A stretch of DNA of 52,419 nucleotides from Limosilactobacillus gorillae (GTDB lineage Bacteria > Verrucomicrobiota > Kiritimatiellia > RFP12 > UBA1067). This document shows, one piece after another, positions 10,595-41,418 of the stretch; position 1 is the first letter of the stretch, and the number at the start of each line of letters is the position of its first letter. A model generated the notes under the pieces. It had not been told where the DNA came from and ran no database searches. It saw only the letters and a program-made list of their open reading frames with translations. The stretch lies in the NCBI GenBank assembly GCA_963653155.1, contig CAVJWR010000002.1, positions 1 through 52,419 on the forward strand, given 5' to 3'. Both the position numbers and the translations under genes were made by a program.

Positions 10595-10605
10595 AATGGC
10601 GTGAA

Positions 10606-10614: not shown

Positions 10615-10628
10615 CAAAGCCTACGTGC

Positions 10629-10697: not shown

Positions 10698-10730
10698 GAA
10701 TGCGAACCAGCATATGCCCCTTGCAGGTCC

Positions 10731-12170: not shown

Positions 12171-12200
12171 TTCTCCGTACCTCCGTGGCTTCGTGTGAAC
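12171..12200. repeat. Half copy (right arm) of the CACGGAG palindromic element (family 1)
   Basis: ttctccgtacctccgtggcttcgtgtgaac resembles the right arms ctccgtggctccgtgtgagt (21266-21285) and ttctccgtgcctccgt..gtgtgag (23016-23045). It fills the 38-nt spacer between two genes and supplies the GGAG of the downstream RBS. Confidence 0.4.
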
Positions 12201-12208
12201 ATCGTGGA

Positions 12209-23126: not shown

Positions 23127-23230
23127 TTGTCGAGCTATTCTGCGAAAGGCACATCGCTGGGCATGCGCCAGTCTCCGCGCGGAGAAAGGTTTATGCTTCC
23201 AATCTTGGGTCCGCCGTCAGTCTGCTGACA
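23127..23230 (-). pseudogene. Relic 3' end of a nadE (NAD+ synthase) gene
   Basis: The minus strand translates to ..[27 protein letters not shown]-stop (stop at 23135-23137). The real NadE C-terminus is ..[26 protein letters not shown]-stop at 41419. The DNA match continues 8 nt past the stop (ttgtcgag vs ttgccgag). Confidence 0.7.
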
Positions 23231-23248
23231 AACGGAACTCCACCACTT

Positions 23249-24805
23249 CTACTCCACAAGCAGGGCCTGTCGCCAACTTGGGCGGACGTAGGGGCGGATG
23301 AGGTCGTTTGCCGCGCGGTCATCGAACGTGCGAGTTGCCGCGTCCCAGACGAGTGATCGATTCAGACGCTGCGACAGACAGCCGACAAGCATGCCTTCGA
23401 GAATCGAGACCGAATAGTCGATGTCGGAGAAGCAGCGGCTACCGCTTGGAAAAACCGGACCCTCGCCCTTGATCGCCGAACACAGCTCTGCGATGTGCGC
23501 CTTGTCCGTGTCGGCATAGAGGTCGGTCGTCGTGCCCTTCACACGCGGCAGATACGGTGTGACGACGCTTTCGCGGCATGCCTCGTGCACCTTCGTGTTC
23601 GTCGGCTCGGTCTCTCCGTTCATCAGCACGACGCAGTCGATGCCGTAGGCGTCGAGTGAGGCCAGCATGCCCTTCGTGCCGCAGATGATGCAGCCGCCTC
23701 GCGGCTCCTTGATCTTCGCGAGCGCGTCAATCATGGGCTTCAGCTTCGGCTCGGTCGGACGAATCCCGCCGTCGTACCACCAGACCGTCGTCTCGGGCAG
23801 CGTCACGCCCGGACGCGCCTTCGACGGACGCGCCGCGTAGACGAGCTTCACGCGACTTTTCATCGGATAAGCCACATCATTCCATTCGCACACCTCATCC
23901 ACCTCCGCCGTCTTCACGGACGCGAGTTCAGCCCCTCTGAACGGCAGATTCAGCGTGTGGCACGCCATGTCGCCGAAGGCCCCCGTTCCGAAATCATAGT
24001 ACGCACGCCAGTTGAACCGATGATAGACGCCGCGCAGGTTGCGCGCGTACTGGCTACGGAACGGCCAAGGCGTGTCAGCCGGACGATCCTGCACATACGG
24101 ACGATTCGAGGCGATGCCGAGCCAAGCGTCCCAGTCGAGCGTTTTCGGTGCCGGGATCATCCGTCCTGCCGCAAACCGCTTCGCCGTCGTGCCCTGAAAC
24201 CAGATCGGACGATCCGTCCAGACATAGACCTCCGAGACGTCGCCGATCACACCCTGCTGAAGGAGCTCGACATGCCGGCGATGCCCGTGCGCCGCCGACC
24301 CCTGATTGCCCATCTGCACGACGCGCCCTGTCTCGTGCGCGACACGACCGACGTAATCGGTCTCCCACAGCGTTCGGGCGAGCGGCTTCTGGATGTAGCA
24401 GTGGACACCCTCCTTCATCGCACGTACGGCCTGTGCGGCGTGCATGTGATCGGGCGTCGAGACGTTCACGACATCAAGACCAAGCTTTGCCTGATCGTCG
24501 AACATCCGGCGGTAGTCCGTGTACGTGCGCACGGACGACACGTCGACACCCGCCTTAACCAGATGCGCAAGCGCCGCGTCGATCATCGTGCGGTCAACGT
24601 CGCAGATCGCCGTCGGGATTTCCCCGTTGGCGAGGAACTTCGTCCAGTCCGTGAAGCCCTTGCCTCCCGCGCCGATGATGCCGAACTTAAGATGCTCGCC
24701 CCGCCACACGGCGCGTCCACAACTGAAGCCGGCGCAGCCGCCCAAGGCCGTTGTCGCGGACAATCCCCCGAATCCCTTGATGAACGTCCTTCTTGATGTC
24801 TTCAT
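23249..24805 (-). CDS. TAT-exported Gfo/Idh/MocA family NAD-dependent oxidoreductase (possibly GH109-like or a glycoside 3-dehydrogenase)
   Basis: Twin-arginine signal MKTSRRTFIKGFGGLSATTALGG, a Rossmann motif KFGIIGAGGKG, and STPDHMHA typical of Gfo/Idh/MocA. Confidence 0.9.
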   Translation of the reverse strand: MKTSRRTFIKGFGGLSATTALGGCAGFSCGRAVWRGEHLKFGIIGAGGKGFTDWTKFLANGEIPTAICDVDRTMIDAALAHLVKAGVDVSSVRTYTDYRRMFDDQAKLGLDVVNVSTPDHMHAAQAVRAMKEGVHCYIQKPLARTLWETDYVGRVAHETGRVVQMGNQGSAAHGHRRHVELLQQGVIGDVSEVYVWTDRPIWFQGTTAKRFAAGRMIPAPKTLDWDAWLGIASNRPYVQDRPADTPWPFRSQYARNLRGVYHRFNWRAYYDFGTGAFGDMACHTLNLPFRGAELASVKTAEVDEVCEWNDVAYPMKSRVKLVYAARPSKARPGVTLPETTVWWYDGGIRPTEPKLKPMIDALAKIKEPRGGCIICGTKGMLASLDAYGIDCVVLMNGETEPTNTKVHEACRESVVTPYLPRVKGTTTDLYADTDKAHIAELCSAIKGEGPVFPSGSRCFSDIDYSVSILEGMLVGCLSQRLNRSLVWDAATRTFDDRAANDLIRPYVRPSWRQALLVE

Positions 24806-24861
24806 CTTTTCTCTTCCTTCCGATTTTTCCGTTTGAAAACTTCTTTTCCGCCACGTTTCGC

Positions 24862-25638
24862 CTATCCGAGCGGGAACTGTTCAAGGAACCGCCGAGAATC
24901 AACTAGTGGCTGAAGCGAATCCGGCACCATTTCGGCCTCGACAAGGCACCACGGGATGCGTTCGGCGGCAACCTGTGCCATGACGGCACGCCAGGGGATG
25001 CACGGCCCACCATCTGTTGGGCGTTCGCCGAGCGTCGCCGTCGCAGACGGCGTGTTTTCCTTCAGGTGGATGGAGAAGTGGCGACCCGGAAATCTCTTCA
25101 GGAGCGCGACAACGTCCGTACCCGTGTGGAAGGTGTTGGAGGTGTCGACCTGCTGCTGCAGCAACGGCGACGTCTCGCGGAAGATGAGGTCCCAAGCAGT
25201 CACGCCGTCGTAGCGCGTCTCGAAATGGTGGTAGGTCGTGTGGACGCCAACCTTGATCCCGTAGGCGGCGGCAACCTCGGCGGCTCGTCCCATGTCCGCG
25301 CCAAATCGCCGATAGCCGTCCGCCGAGTCGCGCTTCGCGTGCGGTGTTGTCACGCTGAGGATGCCTGCCTCGGCGCAGATGTCAAGTGTGCGCTTCAGCT
25401 CGTCGCCGACGAGGAAGAGGTCACCGTTGACGTGTGTGCCGACACCGACCATCCCCGTGTTCGCAAGAATCCGCTTCAGTCCGATCGCCGAATGTCCGCC
25501 ATACTTCGCGAACTCAACACCGTCGTAGCCGACGGCCTTCAGGTCGGCAAGACACCGCTCCGGATCCTTCCAGATTAGGTCTCGAATGGAATAGAGCTGC
25601 ACGGCGAAGCGTGTGCCAGCGTCTTTTTTCTCGTTCAT
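24862..25638 (-). CDS. Sugar phosphate isomerase/epimerase (xylose-isomerase-like TIM barrel) family protein
   Basis: 258 aa with FAVQLYSIRD...GYDGVEF at the N-terminus and HTTYHHFE, HLKE metal-site-like motifs. No signal peptide. The start overlaps the upstream stop (ATGA). Confidence 0.85.
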   Translation of the reverse strand: MNEKKDAGTRFAVQLYSIRDLIWKDPERCLADLKAVGYDGVEFAKYGGHSAIGLKRILANTGMVGVGTHVNGDLFLVGDELKRTLDICAEAGILSVTTPHAKRDSADGYRRFGADMGRAAEVAAAYGIKVGVHTTYHHFETRYDGVTAWDLIFRETSPLLQQQVDTSNTFHTGTDVVALLKRFPGRHFSIHLKENTPSATATLGERPTDGGPCIPWRAVMAQVAAERIPWCLVEAEMVPDSLQPLVDSRRFLEQFPLG

Positions 25639-27038
25639 ATCGTCACATCCTTCTTGATAGGTTTACCAAGCTGTCCATTGAAGCCTCGCGGCCGCACCGC
25701 GAGCGTCGACATCCCCGCCGGGAAATACGATTTCGCGAGCGTCAGCGAGACAGGGCCAAGCGCACGGCGGATCGAGTTGCGGCAGTTGTAGTCTACTAGA
25801 TGCCGCGTGAAGCGCACAACGCCGTTCTGGGCACACGTGATCTCCCAGTCGAACGTACGCACGCCTACAATGCCCGTCGCCGCTGGGAACGTGCAGACAA
25901 CCGTCCCGCCGCGATCTACGACAGACAGCTCCGCACCGTCGGCAAATTCCGGTGCCGCATACGCGCACACGTTGTGTTCGGGCGCATACGGCCTGTCCGA
26001 CGTTGCGACGGGCAGGGGAATCACCCAGTCGTCGCCCAGCGTCTCGGCGTTGCGCAGGAAGTCGCGGCGCTCAAGGACGATCCGGTCGTCGAAGACCTCC
26101 GCCACCATCCCCTGCCGCGCCTCCCAAACGCCCTCGTATTTCGGCATCAGGCTGCCACGGATGTTCTCGTAGCCGTTCGCGCCGGTCGGACACTTGAAGT
26201 CTCCTGCGCAGAACCTGAGCGATGCCGTGCCGACCGACGTGAACGCCCCCTGCCAGATTGCCGACTCGTCCGTAAGTGGCGTGTGCGAGTGTCCCGAAAA
26301 CGCGACAGCGTTCGGAAAGTGTGAAAGGACGCGCGTCGCCGTCCCGTCGTCCGCACCCCAAGCGTGTCCGAGATGGCAGGTGTCCTTCGGATGCTGGTGC
26401 TGGATGTAAAAGAATGGACGCTCCCCCGCGAATTCCGCCGCATGCTCCGCGAAAAACGACTCGATTGCGGCGACGCCTTCCTTGTGGCCTGGCACCCAGT
26501 GCGCACCGACGAAGTGGTAGCCCTTCACGGTCTTTGTCCAGACCGGCGCATACGGCTCACGGAAGAAGTCTTCCCATGCGCTTGCCGGATCATTCGCGAT
26601 CACCTCGCGCGCGAAGGACGCCTTGTGCTCGTGGCGGCGCGCAAAGCCCCAGTTGTTGCAGCCTTCAAGGTCGTGGTTGCCGTAGACAAACAGCTTCTCG
26701 ACTTTTCGCCCGTCCGCCCCACGGTCGTCAGGGAAGACGGAATACCAGGCTTCCGCGACAATCTCCAGCTGATAACGCATGCCCGTGTCGGCCATGTCGC
26801 CCGCGATCACGACGCCATCGACGTTCCGTGCGCGGAAATAGGCGAGTGCCTTGACGAACGTGCGAGCATCGCCGAAGATGCGGAAGTCGCGTCGGGGCGC
26901 GTCGATGTGGAGATCCGAAAGAATGCCGAGACGCAGGTTCGGCGTTCCGGCGGCGAACAGTCCGGCCGGCGCGGCAAACGCGCGTCCCGCCGCGAACGCC
27001 CCGGCCCAGCAGATGAAATCCCGTCGACTTGTCTTCAT
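25635..27038 (-). CDS. TAT-exported calcineurin-like metallophosphoesterase
   Basis: The start is set at MKTSRRDFICWAGAFAAGRAFA (twin-arginine signal). Motifs include ILSDLHID, GDMAD, GNHD and GHSH. Confidence 0.8.
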   Translation of the reverse strand: MKTSRRDFICWAGAFAAGRAFAAPAGLFAAGTPNLRLGILSDLHIDAPRRDFRIFGDARTFVKALAYFRARNVDGVVIAGDMADTGMRYQLEIVAEAWYSVFPDDRGADGRKVEKLFVYGNHDLEGCNNWGFARRHEHKASFAREVIANDPASAWEDFFREPYAPVWTKTVKGYHFVGAHWVPGHKEGVAAIESFFAEHAAEFAGERPFFYIQHQHPKDTCHLGHAWGADDGTATRVLSHFPNAVAFSGHSHTPLTDESAIWQGAFTSVGTASLRFCAGDFKCPTGANGYENIRGSLMPKYEGVWEARQGMVAEVFDDRIVLERRDFLRNAETLGDDWVIPLPVATSDRPYAPEHNVCAYAAPEFADGAELSVVDRGGTVVCTFPAATGIVGVRTFDWEITCAQNGVVRFTRHLVDYNCRNSIRRALGPVSLTLAKSYFPAGMSTLAVRPRGFNGQLGKPIKKDVTI

Positions 27039-27064
27039 GTCTTGACCTTTCCCTTGCCAACGTT

Positions 27065-29233
27065 TCAACGACAAATGAGGAGGAATCCCAGCCGCCCCAT
27101 CGTGAGGGCGGCAGCCGGCGAATCACGCATCACCGTTTCCCCGCCCATACAGAAGCTCGCACGTACGGCCACGGCTACCGGCTCACGCGCATGCCGCCAG
27201 TTCGCAACGAACGCGCAGTTCGTCTCGTCCAGGACGGCTTTGCCGTTCCAGAGCCACTGGTACGCGGTGGCCGCCGGCGCGTAGGCCGAGAGCGTGACCG
27301 CACCATCGACGGACACGGCGGCGTTCGTCGGCGTTTCGAAGAATGGCCGCGCATCGTCGCCCCAACCGCAACCGCCCACGGCGAACGGGACGGTCGCCGC
27401 ACGTCCATCCGTGCGGATATCGCCGGTCACGACGTTCTTCAGGCCGATTCGCGTCGCGTCCCTGTAGGGTAGCCAATGCTGCTTGAGCACATCATCGTCA
27501 TAGACCCGACAGGCATAGAGGCGCATGTCCGCACGGTTGATCGTGCCGCTGAAGTCGGCCGTGTAGGGTTCGCCGAAGAGACCCATCAGCCACGTCGATG
27601 GCTTCGTTGCGCTGTCGATCGCATGCGTGTAGTTCGTGACCGTTCCCGTGATGAAGTGCATCTGCGCACGCTTCATGTCGAGAATCGCCGTGTGCCGCAG
27701 GAGATCGACCGCGACGCCTGTGTCGTAGCCGGGGAAACTGCCCACCATGTAGTCGCCAGCAGCGAAAGCGAAGTTGCCCGCGCCCGCCATCGTGCCGTTG
27801 CAGTAGAGCCCATAGACGAAGTCCGTCGCGCGCGTCGCGCCAAAGATCCGCTCCTGGCAGTTCGTGTGGCTGTTCAGTGCGAAATCGATCTCCACACGCG
27901 TATTGAGTCCCAGCGCACGGCTCGTGTTGATGATCTGGTCGCCGGTCGAGCGAAGGTGCGCACCATCGCTGCCGTCCGTGTCGATGTCGCCGCCGTATCG
28001 GAACGGACGCCCCTTCGGTGCGGGTGTGAGAAAGCCGCCGCCTTTTGCGTCAAGCAGTCCAGCCGCGCCGTGCCGTACTGCCGGACGGTAATCGCGGACG
28101 ATTTCGCCGCCTTCAAGGATGCGGAATGAGTAGACCTTCATCCGCGCGAGCAGGTAGCCGCTTCGCCCGTCCGCACCCAGCTGTCCGAAAAGGCCGAGTG
28201 TACGCGTCGCCTCGGTCGTCAGCGGCGAAAGCCCCTTGCGAACGACGGACACGCCCTGCTCCAGCAGTTCGCCTGTGGCGTTCGCGACGTCAAGGACGAC
28301 CGTCCGGCGCATCGCGTCAAAGCCCGTCCCGGACCAGATGCCCGACCAGGCGTCGCCGCACGAGAACGCGATGTTCGCGTCGCTTCCGTCTGGTGTGCCC
28401 GCGACGTAGACCGTCGTCGACGGCTCCTTGTCCGACTCGGCGGCGGAGAAGAGCCGTGCCTGAACCGTGCCGCTCGCGTTCACATGTGCGTTGACCGGCA
28501 CGAGCGCGTAGTCAAGCTCGAATCGCGAGGTCGGTTTCGCCCGATAGCCCGTATCGATGAACGAGGTACCGTCGGACGCAAGGTAGGCGTCCAGTTCCTC
28601 GACCGCGCCGCCAAACCGTAGCGTTGTCCCCACGATGCCGTTCGCGCAGAAGCCGCCGCCCACCGTATCGCGAAAGCCCGGTCGCCCGTCCTTGATCGCC
28701 GGCACACCCTGCATCACCAGTGTCTCGTCCTCGTAGACCCTGAAGCCGTAGATCCGCACATTGGCGAACAGTCCGAACGCCGTACCCGCCCCGTTCGACG
28801 CATAGCCGAAAGCGGCCAGTGGATAGTCGCTCGCCTCCGTCACGGCGAACGTCGCGACCGAAACGCCATTCGTTACGCCATCCGTAACGAGGTAGCCCTT
28901 CCCCGTTCGCGCGTCGCCAATCGCCAAATGCCGCGCCGTGTCAGCCTTGAGTGCCGTCGCATAGCCGCCAGCCGTCGCGCCGAACGAGAAGAGGCCATCC
29001 CCGTTGATGTACAGAGCCAGCTGTCCCTTGCCTGAGCTGACGCCGAAGACGCGCTGCTGCGTCGTCGTGTCCGTCAGGGCGAAATCGACCTCCCAGCGCG
29101 TCGTCGGCGTCATCTTCCGACCAAGCGAAATCGCCTGCGTGCCTGTTGCCTCGATGAAGCCGTCTTCCGCCAAAGCCGACACTGCCGCCAGCATCAGCAG
29201 CCCGACCGCAAACATGAGTTTTCGTCGCTTCAT
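27065..29233 (-). CDS. Secreted protein with three approximately 190-aa jellyroll-like modules of uncharacterised type plus a C-terminal Ig-like domain
   Basis: Signal peptide MKRRKLMFAVGLLMLAAVSALA. The three modules open with FIEATGTQAISLG..RWEVDFAL, YLASDGTSFIDTGY..RFELDYAL and HLRSTGDQIINTS..RVEIDFAL. They close with R(I/V)Y.FR(V/I)... or RLY.CRV.. followed by ..GG. Confidence 0.75.
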   Translation of the reverse strand: MKRRKLMFAVGLLMLAAVSALAEDGFIEATGTQAISLGRKMTPTTRWEVDFALTDTTTQQRVFGVSSGKGQLALYINGDGLFSFGATAGGYATALKADTARHLAIGDARTGKGYLVTDGVTNGVSVATFAVTEASDYPLAAFGYASNGAGTAFGLFANVRIYGFRVYEDETLVMQGVPAIKDGRPGFRDTVGGGFCANGIVGTTLRFGGAVEELDAYLASDGTSFIDTGYRAKPTSRFELDYALVPVNAHVNASGTVQARLFSAAESDKEPSTTVYVAGTPDGSDANIAFSCGDAWSGIWSGTGFDAMRRTVVLDVANATGELLEQGVSVVRKGLSPLTTEATRTLGLFGQLGADGRSGYLLARMKVYSFRILEGGEIVRDYRPAVRHGAAGLLDAKGGGFLTPAPKGRPFRYGGDIDTDGSDGAHLRSTGDQIINTSRALGLNTRVEIDFALNSHTNCQERIFGATRATDFVYGLYCNGTMAGAGNFAFAAGDYMVGSFPGYDTGVAVDLLRHTAILDMKRAQMHFITGTVTNYTHAIDSATKPSTWLMGLFGEPYTADFSGTINRADMRLYACRVYDDDVLKQHWLPYRDATRIGLKNVVTGDIRTDGRAATVPFAVGGCGWGDDARPFFETPTNAAVSVDGAVTLSAYAPAATAYQWLWNGKAVLDETNCAFVANWRHAREPVAVAVRASFCMGGETVMRDSPAAALTMGRLGFLLICR

Positions 29234-31416
29234 TGTGCTGTCCTTTCCTGTGCGTGTTCCAGTCGTGAAAGTTCAAGCGCGTCCACGCGGACGGCCCGCA
29301 TTCCAGAGAGTCCCGAAAGCGCACCGCGCACGTCGAGCTTGTACCCGACCGCCGGCACGAACGTGCCCAAGTCAATCCAGTCCCACTCCACCGAAACCTC
29401 AGACGCGGCGACTTCGCGCCGAAAGCGCACCTGCGCGTCCTTGACGACAACCGTCAGTACCGCATCGCCGCCGTCAGCCCGCCGTTCGCCCTTCGCATGG
29501 ATGCGGAGACGCAACAGCACGTTCGGATCGAACGCAAGGTCGTCGAGAAAGAACCGAATCGCGTCCTGCCCGTCACGCGGATAGACTTCGACGGCCTGTC
29601 CACCGAATGCCGTCGGATCATCAACGCACCGTGCGTGATAGCCGTGGCGCTCGTTCCACTCGCCGCCCGTGTAGTCTCCATCGCGTACGCAGAAGTCAGC
29701 CGTCTCAATTCGCGCACAGGTCGCGGCTGCGACGGGGCGATGCGTCCGCATACGCGCAAGCCGACGGCGCATCCACGCATCCTGTCCGCGCTGGAGCGCG
29801 AAATGGAGCGGCACGCCACGCGCGGCGGCGGCAGCGCGAATCGACGCCTCTTCCGCCAGCAATGCGTCAAGCCCGTGCGGACGCGCAAAGCGTTTGGGAT
29901 GCGCCGTCACGGAATGCGTCGGAGCAAAGCAGGCGAGGCGATTCAACAACGCGACGACCGTCGGATATTTCGCGAGGCGCACGGCGAAGCGGGCATCGGG
30001 GTCGTCTCGCGTCGCCCGCTCGGCGGCTTCCCACAGACCGAGCGAGACGCGCAGGAAACCGTCAGGGAACGTCTTCGGATCATCTTCGCCGCCATAGGTC
30101 AGCACGGCTTCTGGATTATGCGCGAGCTGCCCTCGCGCGAGATCATAGGCCGCGCGCACATGCGGGGCGCCGGCCCCGTAGGCTCCACGGCAGAAGCGAT
30201 CGACAAGTTCGTCCGTGGACTGGTCGGGATTCCACATCAGCTTCGCGAGCACCCAGCACCGCAGGTCGCCGAAATCGCCACCCGGCAACGGCTGACCGTC
30301 CATGTAGACGTATTTCGCGCCTCGGTCACGGTAGTAGCGCAAGTTCGGGCCGTATACCGTGATGTTCGGATGCGGCAGGAAGAACCAGCGGAAGTTCGGC
30401 GTGTAGTCCCACTGGTAGATCCGCTCCGTTCCCGATGTCCACGCCTCGTAGGCACGCTTCCACGCGACGTTCTTCGGACGCGCCGCCGTCGCAAGCGGCT
30501 CGGCGTAGTCCGCCGCCGTGCAACAGCAGACGATCACGTTACGGCGCGGGCGTACCGTCTTCGGCGGCTTGAAGGTCTCGCCATAGGCGATGGTCTCGAC
30601 GAGCAGATCCGGGCGAACGCGTTCGATGCGTTCGGCGACAGCGTTCACAAACCGCAAGACGGGGCCGGCACGAGAACCTTCATCGGCGAATATCTCGCGA
30701 CACGTGGCACATTCGCAGAAGTTGCCCCAGTCCATCTGCGAGACGCCAACGACACGACAGCCGGGATCGGCCGCCGCCAAGGCCAGTGCATTCGACGCGG
30801 CGACATCCACGACCTCTGGATTCGAGAGGCAGAGCTGCGTCGATTCCGAGATGCGTCGTCCATCGATCTCGCTGAACCATTCGGGATGCGCGGCGAAATG
30901 GCGTTCGGGCGGCACGAGCGTGAGGAAGGTGTGCGACGTGTAGAGGCGACGAGCAAAGCGCAACGGACAGCCCCCATACTTAGGATCGGGATTCGGCACC
31001 GCGCCATCGGGACTCTCGCCGTTCAGGCGGCATCGTGCGGCAAAAAGCTGATTCGTGCGGACGCCATACCACGACGGCTGTCGCAGTTCGAAGGCGGGAC
31101 GCTCTGTAATTGACGTGCCGTCCGGCACGACCAGTTTCGCGCGACGGGGCACGACCGTCCGCCACGGCGCGTACCAGCCGCATCCGCCGAAGCGTTCCAG
31201 CAATTCGTAGACGCCATAAAGTGCACCGCGCGGCGATTCGCCCGCGATGGTGACGATGCCGTTCGTCGCGCGGATCGTGAAGCCGTCGCCCGTGCCATCC
31301 CCGGCCGTGACGACGAACGCACCCGGTTCGGGACGCGCCCCGGTCATCCGCTCGACGTGGCGGTCGAGTTCCTCTTGCGCGAACAGCGCGGCGAAAAGGA
31401 CAAGGGCGGCGATCAT
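29230..31416 (-). CDS. DUF4838 domain-containing glycoside-hydrolase-like protein
   Basis: The N-terminal EELDRHVERMTG...GALYGVYELLERFGGCGWYAPW pattern is typical of DUF4838 proteins. 728 aa. It has a short uncharged hydrophobic N-terminus and ATGA overlaps at both ends. Confidence 0.75.
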   Translation of the reverse strand: MIAALVLFAALFAQEELDRHVERMTGARPEPGAFVVTAGDGTGDGFTIRATNGIVTIAGESPRGALYGVYELLERFGGCGWYAPWRTVVPRRAKLVVPDGTSITERPAFELRQPSWYGVRTNQLFAARCRLNGESPDGAVPNPDPKYGGCPLRFARRLYTSHTFLTLVPPERHFAAHPEWFSEIDGRRISESTQLCLSNPEVVDVAASNALALAAADPGCRVVGVSQMDWGNFCECATCREIFADEGSRAGPVLRFVNAVAERIERVRPDLLVETIAYGETFKPPKTVRPRRNVIVCCCTAADYAEPLATAARPKNVAWKRAYEAWTSGTERIYQWDYTPNFRWFFLPHPNITVYGPNLRYYRDRGAKYVYMDGQPLPGGDFGDLRCWVLAKLMWNPDQSTDELVDRFCRGAYGAGAPHVRAAYDLARGQLAHNPEAVLTYGGEDDPKTFPDGFLRVSLGLWEAAERATRDDPDARFAVRLAKYPTVVALLNRLACFAPTHSVTAHPKRFARPHGLDALLAEEASIRAAAAARGVPLHFALQRGQDAWMRRRLARMRTHRPVAAATCARIETADFCVRDGDYTGGEWNERHGYHARCVDDPTAFGGQAVEVYPRDGQDAIRFFLDDLAFDPNVLLRLRIHAKGERRADGGDAVLTVVVKDAQVRFRREVAASEVSVEWDWIDLGTFVPAVGYKLDVRGALSGLSGMRAVRVDALELSRLEHAQERTAQ

Positions 31417-32195
31417 CGGTCGGTATCGATCTTCGAGAGATCGCCATTGATGGTGATGCCGCCATCCGCGACAAGGATGGCACCGTTCAGGTAGGACGAC
31501 TCGTCCGACGCGAGAAAGAGCGCGATCTTCGCGATTTCCTCAGGCGTGCCATAGCGGCGGAGCGGCGTGCGGAGCTTGAGGAACCGCTCCTCGTCGAAGG
31601 TCGAGTCCGACGGATTCGACTGGCGCATCATCGGCGTCAGGATCGCAGCCGGCGAGATCGCGTTCGTGCGGACATTGTAGCGGCCGTACTCGACGGCCAG
31701 CGACTTCGTGAGCTGAACGATCGCGCCTTTCGTCGCCGTGTAGGCATCACAGTCCGGAATGCCGATCTGCGCGGCGGACGAGCCGGTGTTGATGATCGAT
31801 CCGCCATGTCCCGACGCAATCATCGTCGGAATCGAATACTTCGCGAACAGGTAGACCGACTTCAGGTTGATGTCGATCACGCGATCCCAGTCGGCCACGG
31901 CAATGTCCGTGATGCGCCCATCGTGCCCCGTCCAGAAGATGCCCGCGTTGTTGTAGAGGACGTCCACCGTCCCCGCCGCCTTGACGACGGCCTCCACGTC
32001 CGCCGCCTTCGAGACGTCGCAGGGCACGAACGTCGCACCAATTTCGGCGGCGGCCGCCGCGCCCTTCGTCGCATTGACATCCGCAAGGAACACCCGCGCT
32101 CCCTCGGACGCAAACAGCCGCGCTCCCTCGAAGCCAATGCCCTGGGCACCACCCGTGACAATGGCAGTCTTCCCTTCCAGTCGTTTCATTTTCAT
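31413..32195 (-). CDS. SDR family NAD(P)-dependent oxidoreductase
   Basis: The start is at MKMKRLEGKTAIVTGGAQGIG (AAGGAG upstream) with a YxxxK site (YTATKGA) and NAG motif. The 415-aa ORF extension is Arg-rich junk overlapping the MFS gene. Confidence 0.9.
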   Translation of the reverse strand: MKMKRLEGKTAIVTGGAQGIGFEGARLFASEGARVFLADVNATKGAAAAAEIGATFVPCDVSKAADVEAVVKAAGTVDVLYNNAGIFWTGHDGRITDIAVADWDRVIDINLKSVYLFAKYSIPTMIASGHGGSIINTGSSAAQIGIPDCDAYTATKGAIVQLTKSLAVEYGRYNVRTNAISPAAILTPMMRQSNPSDSTFDEERFLKLRTPLRRYGTPEEIAKIALFLASDESSYLNGAILVADGGITINGDLSKIDTDR

Positions 32196-33526
32196 TTTCT
32201 CCTTCCTTCCGCAAACCAACGTTCGATTTCCTCCAAGGTCTTGCCCTTCGTTTCGGGCATGTAAAGATGGACTGTCAGGTAATAGACAACCGTGCAGGCA
32301 GCGAATCCCAGGAACAGCCAGCCGTAGCCGATGCGCCCGACCAACGGCAACAGCGTAGACTGAAGCCCTGTCGCGACGCCCTGGTTCGCCATGAGGGACA
32401 CGCCCATGCCGACAGCCCGAATGCGGCGCGGCATGAGTTCGGTCAGTGCCAGCCACACACAGACGCCCGGCCCCACGCAGAATGATGAAATGAAAACGAC
32501 GAGCGTGGCGAGCACCGCCCAGCCCGTCATGGGCGAAGCCGTGACAAGTCCACGCTCCAGTGCCATCATGAGAACGCCCGCAACGGCCATCGAGCCAATG
32601 ATGCCGCGCGTACCGAGTTCCAGCAGGAAGACGCGTCCCTTTCGGTCTACCAGTGCGCACGCTACAGCCGTCATCGCGAGCATCGCGACCTTGAGGCAGA
32701 CATCCGCAACGTGGATCGCGTGCAGGGAAAGCCCGGCTTCGCGGAAGATCGTCGTCGTATAGCCGAGGACGACGTTGATGCCTGTCGCCTGATTGCAGGC
32801 GAGAACCGTGAAGGCGATCGCGAACGGCACGAGATATTTGCGCTGCAGCAGAGGCTCATTCACGGGCGGAACAGCGGAGACAACCGTGTCGTGCGCAGGG
32901 CGCGGCCTCCAGGCGGGCGACTCCTTCAGGAACAGGCCCGCAACGAAGACAGCCGCAGAAAGACCTCCTACGAGGCCGAAGACGGTACGCCAGCAACGCG
33001 TCTTCGCCACCGCGTCAAGTGTTGGCGAATCCGCTGGACCGACCACCAGCGCAAGCGCCAGCCCGATCAGTCCGGACGCGAGAATGCCGCCGATCATCAC
33101 GAGCTGAAAAAAGCCCGCGCCACGTCCACGAATCTCCTTGGGCAGCGTTTCGGCAATGTACAGCGGCGTGACGACCGCGATGACGCCCATGCCGCAGCCC
33201 TGTAGCAGGATGCCCGCATAGAGTGCCGCGAAGCTTGCGTCCGACAGCGCCGCGAGAGAGGACCCTGCCGCAAAGAACAGTGTTCCCAGGAGAAATGTTC
33301 GCTTCCGCCCGAACCAGTCGCTCAGCGCTCCGGCGACGAAGTTGACGCAGACCGACCCCAACAGACAGCCGCCGACCAGCAGGGAAAGCCGTGAGGCGCC
33401 GAACGTTGTCGTCGCCTCTATGTAGGGTTTGGCAATCGACATCTCGCCGTTGGCCCCGAGTCCGTAGAGGACTCCTGCCAACCCCGACAACGCGAGGAAA
33501 TAGGCGAGATATCGCTTGTCCATCAT
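32192..33526 (-). CDS. MFS transporter, sugar porter family
   Basis: 444 aa and about 12 TM segments, with GALSDWFGRKR (the MFS loop 2-3 motif), PKEIRGRG, and a C-terminal PETKGKTLEEIE characteristic of sugar porters. Confidence 0.9.
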   Translation of the reverse strand: MMDKRYLAYFLALSGLAGVLYGLGANGEMSIAKPYIEATTTFGASRLSLLVGGCLLGSVCVNFVAGALSDWFGRKRTFLLGTLFFAAGSSLAALSDASFAALYAGILLQGCGMGVIAVVTPLYIAETLPKEIRGRGAGFFQLVMIGGILASGLIGLALALVVGPADSPTLDAVAKTRCWRTVFGLVGGLSAAVFVAGLFLKESPAWRPRPAHDTVVSAVPPVNEPLLQRKYLVPFAIAFTVLACNQATGINVVLGYTTTIFREAGLSLHAIHVADVCLKVAMLAMTAVACALVDRKGRVFLLELGTRGIIGSMAVAGVLMMALERGLVTASPMTGWAVLATLVVFISSFCVGPGVCVWLALTELMPRRIRAVGMGVSLMANQGVATGLQSTLLPLVGRIGYGWLFLGFAACTVVYYLTVHLYMPETKGKTLEEIERWFAEGRRK

Positions 33527-33536
33527 TCGTTCCCCA

Positions 33537-34466
33537 TCAGCCCTTCAGGGCCTCCAAGATTGCCTTCTTGATGCCCGTCGGTCCAATTCCGTACTCTTCG
33601 CAGAGCCACCGTTGGCTACCGATCTTCGTGACGTAGACATCGGGTAGGCCGAGCCGCTTCAGACGGCAGCTGACGCCCGCGTCCATCAGCACTTCGGACA
33701 CCGCCGAGCCGACGCCTCCTGAGAGATTGTGCTCCTCAACGGTGATGATCGTGCCGGTTTCCCGTGCGGCTCGGACGATTGCCTCGCGGTCGATCGGCTT
33801 GATCGAGTAGAGCGAGACGAGACGGCACGAGATGCCCTGTTCGCGCGCAAGCTCCTCGACGGCCCGCTTGGCGTCCACGCCGATCGTGCCGGCGAAGAAC
33901 ACTGTCGCGTCCTTGCCGTCGCGAATCTGCGATGAGCCGCCGATGCGGAAGTCCTCGACTTCGCGTCCATCATGGAGGTCGGGTTCGTTCTTGTAGCCGC
34001 AACGGAAGTAGACCGGCCCTCGGTAGGCCATCATCGCCCGTGTCGCCGCGCGCGTCTCGGCACCGTCGGACGGCACGAGGACGACCATGTTCGGAAGAGC
34101 ACGCATGATGGCGATATCCTCCGTCGAGTGGTGGCTCATTCCGAGCTCGCCGTAGGCGACACCGCCGCCGATGATGACGATCTTCACGTCCGCATCATGG
34201 TAGCAGACATCGTTGCGGATCTGCTCCAGGCAACGCAGGGTCGGGAAGTTCGCGATCGAGTAGGTGATCGCCGTGTTGCCCTCCATCGCGACACCGCACG
34301 CGACGCCCGTCATCTCCTGCTCGGCGACGCCACAGTTGATGAAGCGGTCCGGATAGGCGTTCGCGAACGGCTCGATCTCGCCATAGCCGATGTCCGCAAG
34401 GATCATGTAAACGTTCTTGCGCTCCGCCGCGATCTTGAGGAGTTCCTGGTTGAATATCTTTCTCAT
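33537..34466 (-). CDS. Transketolase, C-terminal (pyrimidine-binding) subunit
   Basis: 309 aa with ADIGYGE...CGVAEQEMTGVA... and the layout of a split transketolase B subunit. Confidence 0.93.
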   Translation of the reverse strand: MRKIFNQELLKIAAERKNVYMILADIGYGEIEPFANAYPDRFINCGVAEQEMTGVACGVAMEGNTAITYSIANFPTLRCLEQIRNDVCYHDADVKIVIIGGGVAYGELGMSHHSTEDIAIMRALPNMVVLVPSDGAETRAATRAMMAYRGPVYFRCGYKNEPDLHDGREVEDFRIGGSSQIRDGKDATVFFAGTIGVDAKRAVEELAREQGISCRLVSLYSIKPIDREAIVRAARETGTIITVEEHNLSGGVGSAVSEVLMDAGVSCRLKRLGLPDVYVTKIGSQRWLCEEYGIGPTGIKKAILEALKG

Positions 34467-34467
34467 G

Positions 34468-35289
34468 TCACATCGCCTCCACTTCTGCCTTGGCCTTCAG
34501 GTACAGATCCTCGACGAGTCCGCCGTAATGCCACTTGTAGTCGTTCTCCATGAACGAGACTCCCTTGCCCTTCACTGTGCGAAAGATGACGGCGCTCGGC
34601 TTGCCCGCCTCTAGCGGCAGGTTCGCGAGAGCCGTCTCGATCGCCTGCGGATCGTGTCCATCGGCCTCGATCGCCTTCCAGCCGAACGCCTCAAGCTTCG
34701 GCCCGAGCGGTTCCAAATCAATGATGTCCTTTGAGTTTCCGAGCGCCTGCAGGCGGTTGTAGTCGACGAGCATCGTCAGGTTGTCGTAATGATGCTGTCC
34801 CGCGAGCATGATCGCCTCCCAGCTCGATCCCTCGTTGAGGTCGCCATCCGAGCTCATCACGAAGACACGATGCTTCGCGCCGTCGCGCTTCGCCGCCATC
34901 GCCATGCCGCACGCGACGGGCAGACCGTGGCCGAGGGAACCCGTCGAAAACTCGACGCCGGGTATGTGGTGCGAGATGTGTCCAGAGAGCTTGCCGTCGT
35001 CGCAGTAGTAGCGGTCAAGCCAGTCCAGCGGAAAGAATCCGCACTCCGCGAGACAGGCGAGCAACGCCGCGCCGCCGTGCCCCTTCGAGAGCAGGAAGCG
35101 GTCTCGTTCGGGCCACTTTGGATTCTTCGGATCGACCTTAAGTATCTTTCGGTAGAGAACCGGATAGATGTCGGCCGTCGAGAGCATCGAACCGATGTGG
35201 CCCGACTTTCCGTGAAACACCATCTTTAGCGTGTGGAGGCGTATCCGCTTGGCGAGCGCCTTCATCTCCGCGATTTCTTGAGCATTCAT
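34468..35289 (-). CDS. Transketolase, N-terminal (TPP-binding) subunit
   Basis: 273 aa with SGHIGSMLS, LSKGHGG and SSDGDLNEGSSWEA (the TPP/Mg site). There is a 1-nt gap to the C-terminal subunit gene. Confidence 0.93.
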   Translation of the reverse strand: MNAQEIAEMKALAKRIRLHTLKMVFHGKSGHIGSMLSTADIYPVLYRKILKVDPKNPKWPERDRFLLSKGHGGAALLACLAECGFFPLDWLDRYYCDDGKLSGHISHHIPGVEFSTGSLGHGLPVACGMAMAAKRDGAKHRVFVMSSDGDLNEGSSWEAIMLAGQHHYDNLTMLVDYNRLQALGNSKDIIDLEPLGPKLEAFGWKAIEADGHDPQAIETALANLPLEAGKPSAVIFRTVKGKGVSFMENDYKWHYGGLVEDLYLKAKAEVEAM

Positions 35290-35379
35290 GTTAGCCTATT
35301 TCCTTTCACGCCGCAAAGCATAGCACATGCATTCGGCATCAAAGTCGTCTCTGCGCGTTTATCTCGAACTTTATGCGCT

Positions 35380-35388
35380 ATTCTACCA
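35380..35388 (-). promoter_or_regulatory. Extended -10 box TGgTAGAAT for the transketolase-led operon
   Basis: The minus strand reads TGGTAGAAT, about 90 nt upstream of ATG 35289. It is divergent from the regulator promoter at 35437. Confidence 0.35.
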
Positions 35389-35436
35389 CAAACAGGCGCT
35401 TCCTGCGTCCATCTGCGAGCGCGGATGGTGTGAATG

Positions 35437-35445
35437 TGGTATAAT
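35437..35445 (+). promoter_or_regulatory. Extended -10 box TGgTATAAT exactly 7 nt upstream of the regulator ATG (leaderless arrangement)
   Basis: tgTGGTATAATgcgcggcATGaaacac. There is no room for an SD, and the predicted TSS coincides with the A of ATG 35453. Confidence 0.45.
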
Positions 35446-35452
35446 GCGCGGC

Positions 35453-41376: not shown

Positions 41377-41418
41377 GCGAAAATAAGGAGGCTACGGCTT
41401 GCTACAGTCGTTGCCGAG

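What the first reader, a model, noticed from the sequence alone, without database searches (positions are those of the whole stretch)
23249..35289. Nine-gene, translationally coupled operon mixing a split transketolase with exported glycan-active proteins of unknown function
On the minus strand the order is transketolase N, transketolase C, sugar-porter MFS, SDR, DUF4838, triple-module secreted protein, TAT metallophosphoesterase, TIM-barrel isomerase/lyase-like protein, and TAT Gfo/Idh/MocA. The junctions are 1 nt, 10 nt, ATGA, ATGA, ATGA, 26 nt, ATGA and 56 nt. It is unusual for cytoplasmic pentose-phosphate-type enzymes to be coupled to surface or periplasmic proteins, and four of the products have no characterised function. 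The arrangement suggests an undescribed route from an extracellular glycan to a ketose or ketose phosphate split by the dedicated transketolase. A XylR-like regulator is divergently transcribed.
Basis: inference. Interest (0 to 1): 0.6.

Follow-up and report, generated by a model that had tools for sequence, protein, structure and literature searches.

The report
Modular glycoside operon with odd transketolase
A rumen-type Kiritimatiellia bacterium has a real, conserved nine-gene sugar operon that joins a largely recognisable glycoside-cleaving gene set to a sugar importer, a reductase and a two-piece transketolase with a remodelled substrate pocket, whose chemistry is still unknown.

Summary
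Nine minus-strand genes at 23249-35289 have the stated domains and junctions (1, 10, ATGA x3, 26, ATGA, 56 nt) and face a XylR-like regulator.

The adjacency is not strain-unique. The same nine-gene order recurs in independent rumen-type assemblies. It consists of two separable modules:
- **Core, always together:** DUF4838, a tandem-LamG protein, a TAT metallophosphoesterase, a TIM barrel and a TAT Gfo/Idh/MocA enzyme.
- **Facultative:** split transketolase, MFS porter and SDR. This part is absent from two loci and occurs elsewhere without the core.

"Unknown function" is outdated for three products:
- DUF4838 is the catalytic domain of GH163 and GH185.
- The oxidoreductase resembles BT2158-type glycoside 3-dehydrogenases.
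- The TIM barrel keeps every catalytic residue of the 3-keto-glycoside beta-eliminase AtOGE.

DUF4838 and the TIM barrel lack signal peptides.

The new part is the transketolase. Its C-subunit lacks three of four phosphate-binding residues and the sugar-hydroxyl-binding Asp. The same positions are altered in E. coli AptB, the apulose-4-phosphate transketolase subunit. The operon has no kinase. The transketolase-SDR pair also sits beside a second DUF4838 subfamily in other genomes.

Its substrate is unidentified. Earlier notes in this scan describe similar non-canonical split transketolases on other DNA.

The parts
35453..36613 (+). XylR-like regulator (periplasmic-binding-protein-like sensor domain + AraC-type HTH), divergent from the operon
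   Evidence: Pfam Peripla_BP_3 2.7e-33 and HTH_18 3.8e-11. A homologous regulator sits in the same divergent position in L019/L020, L017 and L021.
35290..35452 (.). Divergent intergenic control region between regulator and tktN
   Evidence: Sequence read. No consensus promoter was called in it by the simple scan.
34468..35289 (-). Split transketolase, N (PP-domain) subunit; catalytic His residues and the Mg/ThDP motif are retained
   Evidence: Pfam Transketolase_N 4.2e-47. Best PDB match is 6YAK split transketolase, 4e-71. The alignment shows the SGH, SKGH, GH, DGD...N and WH motifs kept.
33537..34466 (-). Split transketolase, C (Pyr + C-terminal domain) subunit with a remodelled substrate pocket
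   Evidence: Pfam Transket_pyr and Transketolase_C. Alignments to human TK, the C. hydrogenoformans split TK, the genome's own full-length TK and E. coli AptB give (human numbering) S345->G, H416->G, D424->L, R474->Y(K), with R318 and the AEQ Glu kept.
32192..33526 (-). MFS sugar-porter family transporter
   Evidence: Pfam Sugar_tr 1.2e-57. NCBIfam sugar porter subfamily.
31413..32195 (-). Classical SDR oxidoreductase; specificity not assignable
   Evidence: Pfam adh_short_C2 1.9e-65. PDB and NCBIfam hits are generic. An orthologue follows tktC in 7 of 10 related Kiritimatiellia loci.
29230..31416 (-). DUF4838 protein (the domain that is catalytic in GH163/GH185 glycoside hydrolases), N-terminally shortened, probably cytoplasmic
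   Evidence: Pfam DUF4838 2e-83. PMC10570127. The orthologue alignment shows that the signal peptide present in distant orthologues is missing here.
27065..29233 (-). Secreted protein with three LamG/ConA-like jelly-roll modules, an Ig-like domain and a short hydrophobic C-terminal tail
   Evidence: Sec-type signal peptide. AF2 model pLDDT 82.9. Foldseek best matches are neurexin LNS and laminin LG tandem domains. No profile similarity to DUF1080. Two-module and three-module orthologues exist.
25635..27038 (-). TAT-exported dinuclear metallophosphoesterase (class-III phosphodiesterase/GpdQ-like core) with an extra C-terminal beta-sandwich domain
   Evidence: Pfam Metallophos. All canonical metal motifs are invariant in 38 homologues. 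AF2 pLDDT 86.5. Foldseek best matches are Rv0805 and GpdQ.
24862..25638 (-). Xylose-isomerase-like TIM barrel; predicted Mn-dependent 3-keto-glycoside beta-eliminase; no signal peptide
   Evidence: PDB 8BVK (AtOGE) 1.4e-16 over the full length. AtOGE H132, H134, D163, H189 and E233 are all conserved (PMC10628242).
23249..24805 (-). TAT-exported (possibly lipidated) Gfo/Idh/MocA oxidoreductase; predicted glycoside 3-dehydrogenase
   Evidence: NCBIfam BT_2158_fam 5.1e-82, 276 bits, below the 750-bit equivalog cut-off. PDB 8TDF/8TDH about 3e-54. SRRTF motif and an LGGC lipobox-like site.
23127..23213 (.). Relic copy of the nadE 3' end; direct repeat with 41411-41497 that brackets the 18-kb sugar block holding this operon
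Evidence: blastn 87% identity over 87 nt.

Best explanation
This is a XylR-type-regulated catabolic operon carried on an 18-kb island in a rumen-type Kiritimatiellia genome. It is built from two separable modules.

Module A is the conserved core: DUF4838, tandem-LamG protein, TAT metallophosphoesterase, TIM barrel and TAT Gfo/Idh/MocA. It processes a glycoside or oligosaccharide as follows (all steps inferred from homology):
- The secreted LamG protein binds the substrate.
- The periplasmic phosphodiesterase-type enzyme removes a phosphoester decoration or linkage.
- The periplasmic BT2158-like dehydrogenase oxidises a sugar at C3.
- The AtOGE-like Mn enzyme breaks the glycosidic bond by beta-elimination. 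This is non-hydrolytic 3-keto cleavage.
- The GH163/GH185-like DUF4838 enzyme, which has lost its signal peptide, hydrolyses a further (probably HexNAc-type) linkage inside the cell.

Module B is facultative: MFS porter, SDR and split transketolase. It imports a released sugar and feeds it into central metabolism without a kinase. The SDR sets up a ketose, and the remodelled transketolase removes a two-carbon unit from a substrate that is not a canonical phosphosugar (inferred).

Shown here: gene order, coupling and conservation; modularity; homology and residue conservation. Inferred: substrate identities, compartments and order of steps.
For: - **Operon anatomy:**
- **Conserved nine-gene order with the regulator:** L019/L020/L037 and, up to the contig end, L040.
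- **Five-gene core in every orthologous locus that is long enough:** L017/L117, L022, L023, L118.
- **Core without transketolase:** L017/L117 and L021, where the regulator lies directly upstream.
- **Transketolase fused directly to DUF4838, without MFS or SDR:** L023.
- **Mosaic identities:** transketolase 88-92% against DUF4838, LamG and phosphoesterase about 60% in L019/L023. L022 shows the reverse, with SDR 62% but DUF4838 and phosphoesterase 78-80%.
- **tktN-tktC-SDR trio without the core:** seven other Kiritimatiellia genomes.
- **Second DUF4838 subfamily beside the trio:** in two of those genomes, from different families, the trio sits beside a DUF4838 subfamily that is 79% identical between them and 22% identical to the window's.
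- **Oxidoreductase:** BT2158 family and 8TDF/8TDH.
- **TIM barrel:** AtOGE with all five catalytic or metal residues.
- **Recurring pairs:** TIM + Gfo pairs recur on C58 and C59 of the same genome, on C58 next to a DUF1080 protein.
- **DUF4838 is a glycoside hydrolase domain:** PMC10570127.
- **Phosphoesterase motifs and fold:**
- **Transketolase pocket substitutions and the AptB parallel:**
- **No kinase in the operon:**
- **Separate full-length transketolase gene on C15:**
Against: - No transcript data and no biochemistry.
- The oxidoreductase scores far below the BT2158 equivalog cut-off (276 against 750 bits).
- The operon lacks the DUF1080 partner of the Bacteroides system, and the LamG protein shows no profile similarity to DUF1080.
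- The TIM barrel has no signal peptide while its presumed partner is TAT-exported. So either 3-keto-glycosides are imported or the barrel is co-exported; neither is shown.
- A Lys next to the replaced Arg is shared with AptB, which acts on a phosphorylated substrate, so phosphate binding is not excluded.
- A PfkB kinase lies in the neighbouring operon of the same island.
- The SDR is not diagnostic.
- The transketolase is absent from two of the seven informative core loci, so the core does not need it.
Confidence: 0.5

Rival explanations
1. Branched-sugar (D-apiose-type) route. The transketolase pair is a functional equivalent of apulose-4-phosphate transketolase AptAB. The SDR and/or the TIM barrel convert a plant-derived branched sugar to its ketose, and the transketolase cleaves it. 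The core releases that sugar from plant glycosides or pectin fragments.
For: E. coli SE15 AptA/AptB are a split pair that sits with two SDR genes, as in several Kiritimatiellia loci. AptB is altered at the same pocket positions (His->Asn against Gly; Asp->Leu in both; canonical Arg lost with a Lys one residue later in both). The habitat is the rumen, and GH106- and GH88-like neighbours occur in L021/L024.
Against: Identity to AptA/AptB is only 39% and 35%, lower in bit score than to the canonical-type C. hydrogenoformans split transketolase. There is no AplK-like FGGY kinase in the operon, and only a 25% match anywhere in the genome. The window has one SDR, not two. The phosphate-binding Ser kept in AptB is Gly here.
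Confidence: 0.12
2. Cyclitol-type pathway by analogy with myo-inositol catabolism. The Gfo/Idh/MocA enzyme acts like IolG, the TIM barrel like the IolE dehydratase and the ThDP enzyme as the carbon-carbon-cleaving step. The sugar porter acts like IolT. The phosphoesterase would free the cyclitol from a phospho-linked head group such as plant inositol-phosphoceramide glycans or phytate.
For: Weak NCBIfam hits of the TIM barrel to IolE (4.8e-11), of the oxidoreductase to IolG (9.5e-9) and of the neighbouring MDR to IolM. A PfkB kinase lies in the adjacent operon. The phosphodiesterase-like enzyme is exported.
Against: The oxidoreductase is far closer to BT2158-type glycoside dehydrogenases (276 bits against about 35 bits). 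The TIM barrel keeps the AtOGE catalytic His. The IolD role is normally played by an acetolactate-synthase-type ThDP enzyme, not a transketolase. The hits to Iol families are far below their cut-offs.
Confidence: 0.08
3. Nothing special. This is an ordinary polysaccharide-utilisation operon in which the split transketolase simply adds pentose-phosphate capacity, or replaces a damaged housekeeping gene, and has no dedicated substrate.
For: Split transketolase-like pairs are common in the class: 119 of 401 genomes at E<=1e-40. The full-length gene on C15 is interrupted by a frame break in this assembly.
Against: Four substrate-contacting residues that are canonical in the genome's own full-length enzyme are replaced, and the replacements are conserved in orthologues down to 62% identity. 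The pair travels with a specific SDR and, in three different arrangements, with DUF4838 genes.
Confidence: 0.12
4. Sulfosugar route of the sulfo-transketolase type (SqwGH-like), fed by a 6-sulfo-sugar-releasing DUF4838 enzyme.
For: SqwGH is a split transketolase, and the pathway is active in cow rumen (PMC13219744). One DUF4838 family (GH185) releases 6-sulfo-GlcNAc.
Against: No sulfoquinovose isomerase, SqwI-type isomerase, sulfoquinovosidase or isethionate exporter lies in or near the operon. Kiritimatiellia are not mentioned in that study. A sulfonate-binding pocket would be expected to keep cationic residues, but they are lost here.
Confidence: 0.04

Closest known systems
Bacteroides thetaiotaomicron BT2156-BT2160 3-keto-glycoside locus (Liu et al. 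2021, PMC8121099; enzymology by Nasseri et al. 2024, cited from memory because the paper is not held)
   Same: Both have a TAT-exported Gfo/Idh/MocA glycoside 3-dehydrogenase next to a xylose-isomerase-like TIM barrel, under a dedicated sugar regulator. The oxidoreductase matches the BT_2158 family model and the 8TDF/8TDH structures.
   Different: The score is well below the equivalog cut-off. The operon has no DUF1080 protein and no second oxidoreductase. It adds DUF4838, a LamG protein, a phosphoesterase and a transketolase module. The phylum is different and there is no SusC/D.
AtOGE, the Mn-dependent 3-keto-O-glycoside beta-eliminase of Agrobacterium tumefaciens (PDB 8BVK, PMC10628242)
   Same: Same length and fold family, aligned end to end (1.4e-16). 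Metal ligands H132, D163, H189 and E233 and the catalytic H134 are all conserved.
   Different: A two-residue insertion lies between the two His residues. Its partner dehydrogenase is a Gfo/Idh/MocA enzyme, not the Agrobacterium flavoenzyme. Activity is untested.
GH163 (BT1035) and GH185 (Sp_0475) glycoside hydrolases, which share the DUF4838 catalytic domain (PMC10570127)
   Same: Strong PF16126 match (280 bits). Like the GH185 cluster, the close orthologues lack a signal peptide.
   Different: The subfamily is unassigned. Catalytic residues were not mapped. The protein has a long C-terminal extension. Substrate is unknown.
AptA/AptB apulose-4-phosphate transketolase of the D-apiose pathway (E. 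coli SE15 ECSF_RS02710/02715; PMC13001218)
   Same: Split architecture and association with SDR genes. The Pyr-domain Asp is replaced by Leu in both. The His and Arg of the phosphate site are replaced, with a Lys one residue after the Arg position in both.
   Different: Identity is only 35-39%. There is no FGGY kinase partner. The phosphate-site Ser is also lost here. The transporter is of a different type.
Non-canonical split transketolases noted earlier in this scan (e1-762611, e1-4659030, e1-1348614, e1-2223004)
   Same: Remodelled two-piece transketolases that travel with SDRs in sugar clusters without kinases. The URO-D/MttB/aminotransferase context of e1-762611 is the one seen here in L027, L028 and L030.
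   Different: Those are unverified AI notes on other DNA. None couples the pair to the oxidative glycoside-cleavage core.

Membership tests
Canonical transketolase (EC 2.2.1.1) | ThDP/Mg-binding PP domain with catalytic His residues (E. coli H26, H66, H100, H261 equivalents) and the GDG...N motif | tested here: met
   The alignment to 6YAK_A and human transketolase shows SGH, SKGH, GH, SDGD...N and WH retained.
Canonical transketolase (EC 2.2.1.1) | Cofactor-activating Glu of the Pyr domain (AEQ motif) | tested here: met
   GVAEQ is conserved in the window and in all orthologues.
Canonical transketolase (EC 2.2.1.1) | Phosphate-binding set Arg/Ser/His/Arg (human R318, S345, H416, R474; E. coli R358, S385, H461, R520) | tested here: not met
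   Only the first Arg is kept. The others are Ser->Gly, His->Gly and Arg->Tyr (a Lys follows). The genome's own full-length enzyme keeps all four.
Canonical transketolase (EC 2.2.1.1) | Asp that binds the substrate hydroxyl and sets D-threo specificity (E. coli D469, human D424) | tested here: not met
   GELG in place of GEDG. Leu is conserved in orthologues (GPLG) and also in AptB.
AptAB apulose-4-phosphate transketolase | Clustering with apulose kinase (FGGY AplK) and an apiose isomerase or two SDRs | tested here: not met
   No FGGY kinase lies in the operon or island, and the best genome-wide match is 25%. Only one SDR is present.
AptAB apulose-4-phosphate transketolase | Close sequence relationship to AptA/AptB | tested here: inconclusive
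   39% and 35% identity, 194 and 195 bits. This is no closer than to a canonical-type split transketolase at 243 and 205 bits. No phylogeny was made.
BT2158-type glycoside 3-dehydrogenase (NCBIfam NF058561) | Score at or above the curated equivalog cut-off | tested here: not met
   276 bits against a cut-off of 750. It is nevertheless by far the best family hit.
BT2158-type glycoside 3-dehydrogenase (NCBIfam NF058561) | Twin-arginine export signal and a Gfo/Idh/MocA Rossmann domain, adjacent to a xylose-isomerase-like TIM barrel | tested here: met
   SRRTFIK motif. Pfam GFO_IDH_MocA and a sub-threshold TAT_signal hit. The TIM barrel lies 56 nt upstream. PDB 8TDF/8TDH about 3e-54.
AtOGE-type 3-keto-O-glycoside beta-eliminase | Mn ligands (H132, D163, H189, E233) and catalytic His134 | tested here: met
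   All five are conserved in the HMMER alignment to 8BVK. Their roles are taken from PMC10628242.
AtOGE-type 3-keto-O-glycoside beta-eliminase | Beta-elimination activity on C3-oxidised glycosides | not testable with these tools
   This needs an enzyme assay.
GH163 / GH185 (DUF4838 glycoside hydrolases) | PF16126 catalytic domain | tested here: met
   2e-83, 280.7 bits, residues 81-422.
GH163 / GH185 (DUF4838 glycoside hydrolases) | Membership of either CAZy family and conservation of the mutagenesis-defined residues (for example Sp_0475 D309) | not tested
   No reference sequence or solved structure was available. PDB profile hits cover only the N-terminal domain of GH115 enzymes.
Calcineurin-like dinuclear metallophosphoesterase, class-III phosphodiesterase/GpdQ type | Motifs DxH, GD, GNH(D/E), H, GHxH, and the fold | tested here: met
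   D42, H44, D81, N121, H122, H214 and H250/H252 are invariant in 38 homologues. Foldseek best matches are Rv0805 and GpdQ, target TM-score 0.61-0.75.

The most novel reading that the evidence does not exclude
The remodelled split transketolase and its SDR define an undescribed, kinase-independent catabolic route for a sugar set free by DUF4838-type glycosidases. The ThDP enzyme would remove a two-carbon unit from a non-phosphorylated, branched or otherwise bulky ketose. In this operon that route is coupled to non-hydrolytic (3-keto/elimination) glycoside cleavage.
Probability: 0.3. Interest if true: 0.7.

Novelty: new variant of a known kind. Interest (0 to 1): 0.5.

Why it matters
Kiritimatiellia are common but almost unstudied glycan degraders of the rumen and gut. 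This operon gives a concrete, conserved test case for three things:
- It shows that the recently discovered oxidative (3-keto) way of breaking glycosidic bonds is used outside Bacteroidota and Alphaproteobacteria, here combined with a phosphodiesterase and a GH163/GH185-like enzyme.
- It gives the large, uncharacterised family of 'odd' two-piece transketolases a catabolic context with a defined partner set: transporter, SDR and DUF4838 glycosidase.
- It narrows the biochemical search. Express the pair and screen non-phosphorylated and branched ketoses.

If the transketolase turns out to be ordinary, the locus is just another sugar-utilisation operon.

Tried and rejected
- **Promoter/terminator scan:** it found no more sites than shuffled controls and is uninformative.
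- **Is the tandem-LamG protein a divergent DUF1080 (3-keto-glycoside hydrolase)?** hhalign probability is 0.6%. Foldseek gives only generic LamG/LNS folds. Rejected for lack of evidence.
- **SDR specificity:** PDB and NCBIfam hits are generic.
- **Sulfo-transketolase idea:** the accessory genes are absent.
- **Apiose idea:** no AplK-like kinase. Kept only as a low-probability rival.
- **Association of DUF4838 paralogues in general with the other genes:** among 160 loci, the full set of core genes accompanies only the orthologous group (at least about 60% identity). L122 and L125 show a weaker DUF4838-Gfo-phosphoesterase grouping.
- **Species in the genus:** in the twelve other genomes of the same genus searched, the best matches to the LamG protein were only distant paralogues.
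- **Nasseri et al. 2024:** it could not be read. Statements about it rest on my own knowledge.
- **Metallophosphoesterase sequence search against PDB:** nothing found. Only the fold comparison worked.

Full report
**Observation**

The ORF lists and a direct read-out of the junctions confirm nine co-directional minus-strand genes between 23249 and 35289. The SDR begins at the ATG at 32195, which overlaps the MFS stop. The metallophosphoesterase begins at the ATG at 27038, 36 nt inside the TTG-started ORF, where the twin-arginine motif starts.

Pfam gives these assignments:

| Gene | Pfam family |
|---|---|
| tktN | Transketolase_N |
| tktC | Transket_pyr + Transketolase_C |
| MFS | Sugar_tr |
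| SDR | adh_short_C2 |
| DUF4838 | DUF4838 |
| tandem-module protein | weak Laminin_G_3 |
| phosphoesterase | Metallophos |
| TIM barrel | AP_endonuc_2 (xylose-isomerase-like) |
| oxidoreductase | GFO_IDH_MocA |
| divergent regulator | Peripla_BP_3 + AraC HTH |

A simple promoter/terminator scan found nothing above shuffled controls inside the unit.

**Setting**

The window is contig C2 of a 3.2-Mb, 183-contig MAG that is 93.5% complete. Named relatives of its proteins are Kiritimatiellia/Kiritimatiellae MAGs, mostly from ruminants.

The operon shares an 18-kb block with a second XylR-regulated operon: an MDR dehydrogenase, an organophosphate:phosphate antiporter and a 1-phosphofructokinase-like PfkB kinase. 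The block is bracketed by an 87-nt direct repeat of the nadE 3' end, 23127-23213 against 41411-41497 at 87% identity. The block is therefore island-like.

**Conservation and modularity**

Orthologues of the DUF4838 protein form a distinct group at 49-78% identity. Below that, identity drops to 39% or less for paralogues. I read their neighbourhoods in metagenome and genome contigs and scored them with the nine window proteins.

| Locus | Arrangement |
|---|---|
| L019/L020/L037 (two JGI samples) | All nine genes in the same order, with the divergent regulator |
| L040 | tktN-tktC-MFS-SDR-DUF4838, then the contig ends |
| L022 | Starts inside the SDR, continues through the five core genes, then a GH20 gene |
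| L023 | tktN-tktC directly followed by DUF4838 and the rest of the core; no MFS or SDR |
| L017/L117 (MAG UBA3841) | Regulator directly upstream of DUF4838; five core genes, then GH20 and a second oxidoreductase; no transketolase |
| L021 | Regulator directly upstream of DUF4838; no transketolase |
| L118 (ruminal_MAG_92) | The five core genes; upstream unknown |

The five genes DUF4838, LamG, phosphoesterase, TIM and Gfo are together in every orthologous locus that is long enough. The transketolase part is present in four or five of seven informative loci and absent from two.

Identities are mosaic:

| Locus | tktN / tktC | SDR | DUF4838 | LamG | Phosphoesterase | TIM / Gfo |
|---|---|---|---|---|---|---|
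| L019/L020 | 88 / 91% | 89% | 63% | 59% | 61% | 84 / 87% |
| L023 | 92 / 91% | absent | 63% | 58% | 59% | 86 / 85% |
| L022 | contig starts after | 62% | 78% | 52% | 80% | 79 / 83% |

The two modules therefore have different histories. The picture of one indivisible nine-gene pathway needs revising.

**The transketolase module elsewhere**

Among 401 genomes of the class, 119 have a match to tktN at E<=1e-40. Ten are close, at 57-72% identity. In seven of these ten loci tktC is followed by an orthologue of the window's SDR at 49-60% identity, and none carries the core.

Neighbours in those loci are a ROK-type regulator, a second SDR, transporters and, in one family, URO-D-like, MttB-like, class-III aminotransferase and amidohydrolase genes.

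In two genomes from different families (G021 and G263) the trio lies beside a second DUF4838 subfamily. That subfamily is 79% identical between the two genomes and only 22% identical to the window's DUF4838. The transketolase-SDR pair thus meets DUF4838 genes in three different arrangements. This is the strongest comparative hint that it consumes something a DUF4838 enzyme releases.

**What the core genes are**

- **DUF4838.** It is not functionless. It is the catalytic domain of GH163 (BT1035, an endo-beta-N-acetylglucosaminidase acting on complex N-glycans) and of GH185 (Sp_0475, an exo 6-sulfo-beta-GlcNAcase). Both are thought to use substrate-assisted catalysis (PMC10570127). Distant orthologues (P0014-P0019) have a signal peptide and an extra N-terminal strand. 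The close group, including the window, starts just before the first helix; one starts MATALFAQEEL. The enzyme is therefore probably cytoplasmic, like the GH185 cluster.
- **Oxidoreductase.** It has an SRRTFIK twin-arginine motif and a lipobox-like LGGC. Its best family is NCBIfam 'BT_2158_fam glycoside 3-dehydrogenase' at 5e-82. The 276-bit score is well below the 750-bit equivalog cut-off. It matches PDB 8TDF/8TDH at about 3e-54. BT2158 is the TAT-exported enzyme proposed to make 3-keto-disaccharides in Bacteroides thetaiotaomicron (PMC8121099).
- **TIM barrel.** It aligns end to end with AtOGE (PDB 8BVK, 1.4e-16). AtOGE is the Mn-dependent beta-eliminase that cleaves C3-oxidised O-glycosides. 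The Mn ligands H132, D163, H189 and E233 and the catalytic H134 are all conserved. It has no signal peptide, and the ORF cannot be extended upstream. TIM + Gfo pairs recur on contigs C58 and C59. On C58 a DUF1080 gene lies next to the oxidoreductase, which is the canonical Bacteroides-type trio.
- **Metallophosphoesterase.** It has an SRRDF motif and all canonical metal motifs, which are invariant in 38 homologues. A confident model (pLDDT 86.5) is closest to the phosphodiesterases Rv0805 and GpdQ and to purple acid phosphatases. It carries an extra C-terminal beta-sandwich.
- **Tandem-module protein.** It has a Sec signal peptide. Its model (pLDDT 82.9) is three LamG/LNS jelly rolls plus an Ig-like domain, matching neurexin and laminin LG tandems. 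Orthologues have two or three modules and distant relatives more. It shows no profile similarity to DUF1080. I read it as a secreted or surface carbohydrate-binding protein; this is an inference.

**The transketolase**

The genome has a separate full-length transketolase gene on C15, so the split pair is an extra copy. The N subunit keeps the catalytic His residues and the Mg/ThDP motif. The C subunit keeps the first phosphate-site Arg and the cofactor-activating Glu but differs at the substrate-contacting positions. I aligned it to human transketolase, the C. hydrogenoformans split enzyme, the genome's own full-length enzyme and E. coli AptB.

| Position (human / E. coli) | Canonical motif (own C15 enzyme unless noted) | Window and its 62-91% orthologues | E. 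coli AptB |
|---|---|---|---|
| S345 / S385 | Ser (ADLEPSNKT) | Gly (ADIGYGEIE) | Ser/Thr kept (ADSTSTAKI) |
| H416 / H461 | His (SHDS) | Gly (IGGG) | Asn (LNAG) |
| D424 / D469 | Asp (GEDG) | Leu (GELG in window, GPLG in orthologues) | Leu (GPLA) |
| R474 / R520 | Arg (IRLGRS in the C. hydrogenoformans enzyme) | Tyr-Lys (FRCGYK) | Gly-Lys (IRMDGK) |

AptB comes from the D-apiose cluster of E. coli SE15, which also holds two SDR genes and a FGGY kinase (PMC13001218).

From my own knowledge of the pathway (Carter et al. 2018, not held), AptAB cleaves a branched ketose phosphate to give a ketone product. This would make loss of the Asp understandable.

Also from memory, substitutions at E. coli S385, D469 and R520 are the ones used in protein engineering to make the enzyme accept non-phosphorylated, non-hydroxylated or aromatic aldehydes.

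Overall identity to AptA/AptB is only 39% and 35%, no closer than to a canonical-type split enzyme. No AplK-like kinase exists in the genome. I therefore do not file the pair as AptAB.

Other split pairs in the class at 41-48% identity also lack the His and Asp but keep a basic residue at the Arg position. The window's enzyme thus belongs to a broad non-canonical group. Earlier notes of this scan describe similar 'odd' split transketolases in many other clusters. I treat these as leads only.

**Most likely mechanism**

*Shown:*
- a tightly coupled, regulator-linked, conserved but modular operon;
- three clearly exported products (LamG, phosphoesterase, oxidoreductase);
- homology with catalytic-residue conservation for the eliminase and the phosphoesterase;
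- a remodelled transketolase pocket;
- no kinase in the operon.

*Inferred:*
1. Outside the cytoplasm, the LamG protein binds a glycoside or oligosaccharide.
2. The phosphodiesterase-type enzyme removes a phosphoester.
3. The oxidoreductase oxidises a sugar at C3.
4. The eliminase then breaks the glycosidic bond. This happens either after import of the 3-keto-glycoside or after co-export of the barrel with its TAT partner.
5. The cytoplasmic DUF4838 enzyme removes a further, probably HexNAc-type, residue.
6. The MFS porter, the SDR and the transketolase convert one released sugar into central metabolites without phosphorylating it first.

I put about 0.85 on 'real, conserved, modular operon'. 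I put about 0.65 on the 3-keto-cleavage reading of the Gfo/TIM pair. I put about 0.4 on the kinase-free, non-canonical role of the transketolase. For the whole statement I give 0.5.

Four rivals are listed with their tests: an apiose-type route, a cyclitol-type route, an ordinary pentose-phosphate supplement and a sulfosugar route.

**Comparison and novelty**

The Gfo/TIM pair is a new member of a known kind. The DUF4838 enzyme and the phosphoesterase are members of known superfamilies with unknown specificity. Neither the papers I could search nor the family libraries describe either of the following:
- the coupling of this core to a remodelled split transketolase and its SDR;
- the recurrent pairing of that transketolase module with two DUF4838 subfamilies.

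I rate the locus a new variant of a known kind, with moderate interest. The interest lies mainly in giving a widespread, uncharacterised transketolase family a tractable catabolic context.

Noticed in passing
G000 contig C15, about 10356-12300 (outside the window): The genome's full-length transketolase gene is broken in this assembly. The first ~60 residues are in one frame and the rest in another. About 20 nt that should encode the conserved 'xGHxS' segment after RDRLVFS appear to be missing. This could be a MAG assembly error or a real pseudogene. If real, the split pair would be the only intact transketolase-like enzyme.
   Followed up: partly
window 23127-23213 and 41411-41497: An 87-nt direct repeat (87% identity) of the nadE 3' end brackets the 18-kb block holding this operon and the neighbouring MDR/antiporter/PfkB operon. 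No integrase is present. This was already noted by an earlier report of this scan.
   Followed up: partly
window 29230-31416 and orthologues P0002-P0019: Close orthologues of the DUF4838 protein have lost the signal peptide and first beta-strand that the more distant orthologues (P0014-P0019) still carry. This implies a move from the outside to the inside of the cell within one orthologous group.
   Followed up: partly
window 27065-29233 and P0122-P0136: The LamG protein exists in three-module (~725 aa) and two-module (~520 aa, middle module missing) forms in otherwise syntenic loci. Distant relatives have four or five modules. All end in a conserved short hydrophobic tail with a terminal Arg or Lys, possibly a sorting or anchoring signal.
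   Followed up: no
L019, L022, L023, L017 compared with the window: Divergence along the operon is strongly uneven. Transketolase, TIM and Gfo are 79-92% identical, while DUF4838, LamG and phosphoesterase are 52-80%, and the ranking differs between loci. This suggests recombination between modules or fast evolution of the substrate-contacting proteins.
   Followed up: partly
L122 and L125 (Kiritimatiellae MAGs RGIG2765, RGIG2632): A paralogous cluster joins a 34-36% DUF4838, a 37-38% TAT Gfo/Idh/MocA and a 41-46% phosphoesterase domain. The phosphoesterase sits inside a much longer (about 1100 aa) protein with a twin-arginine motif. The DUF4838/Gfo/phosphoesterase grouping is therefore not limited to one orthologous group.
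   Followed up: no
L027, L028, L030 (Kiritimatiellia genomes G132, G301, G161): The transketolase orthologues sit with two URO-D-like genes, an MttB-like gene, a class-III aminotransferase and an Amidohydro_2 gene.
   Followed up: no
G000 contig C58, 8-3672 (outside the window): A canonical Bacteroides-type set lies together on one strand: DUF1080 3-keto-disaccharide hydrolase, TAT Gfo/Idh/MocA and a TIM barrel. The genome holds at least nine DUF1080 genes, so oxidative glycoside cleavage seems to be used widely by this organism.
   Followed up: no
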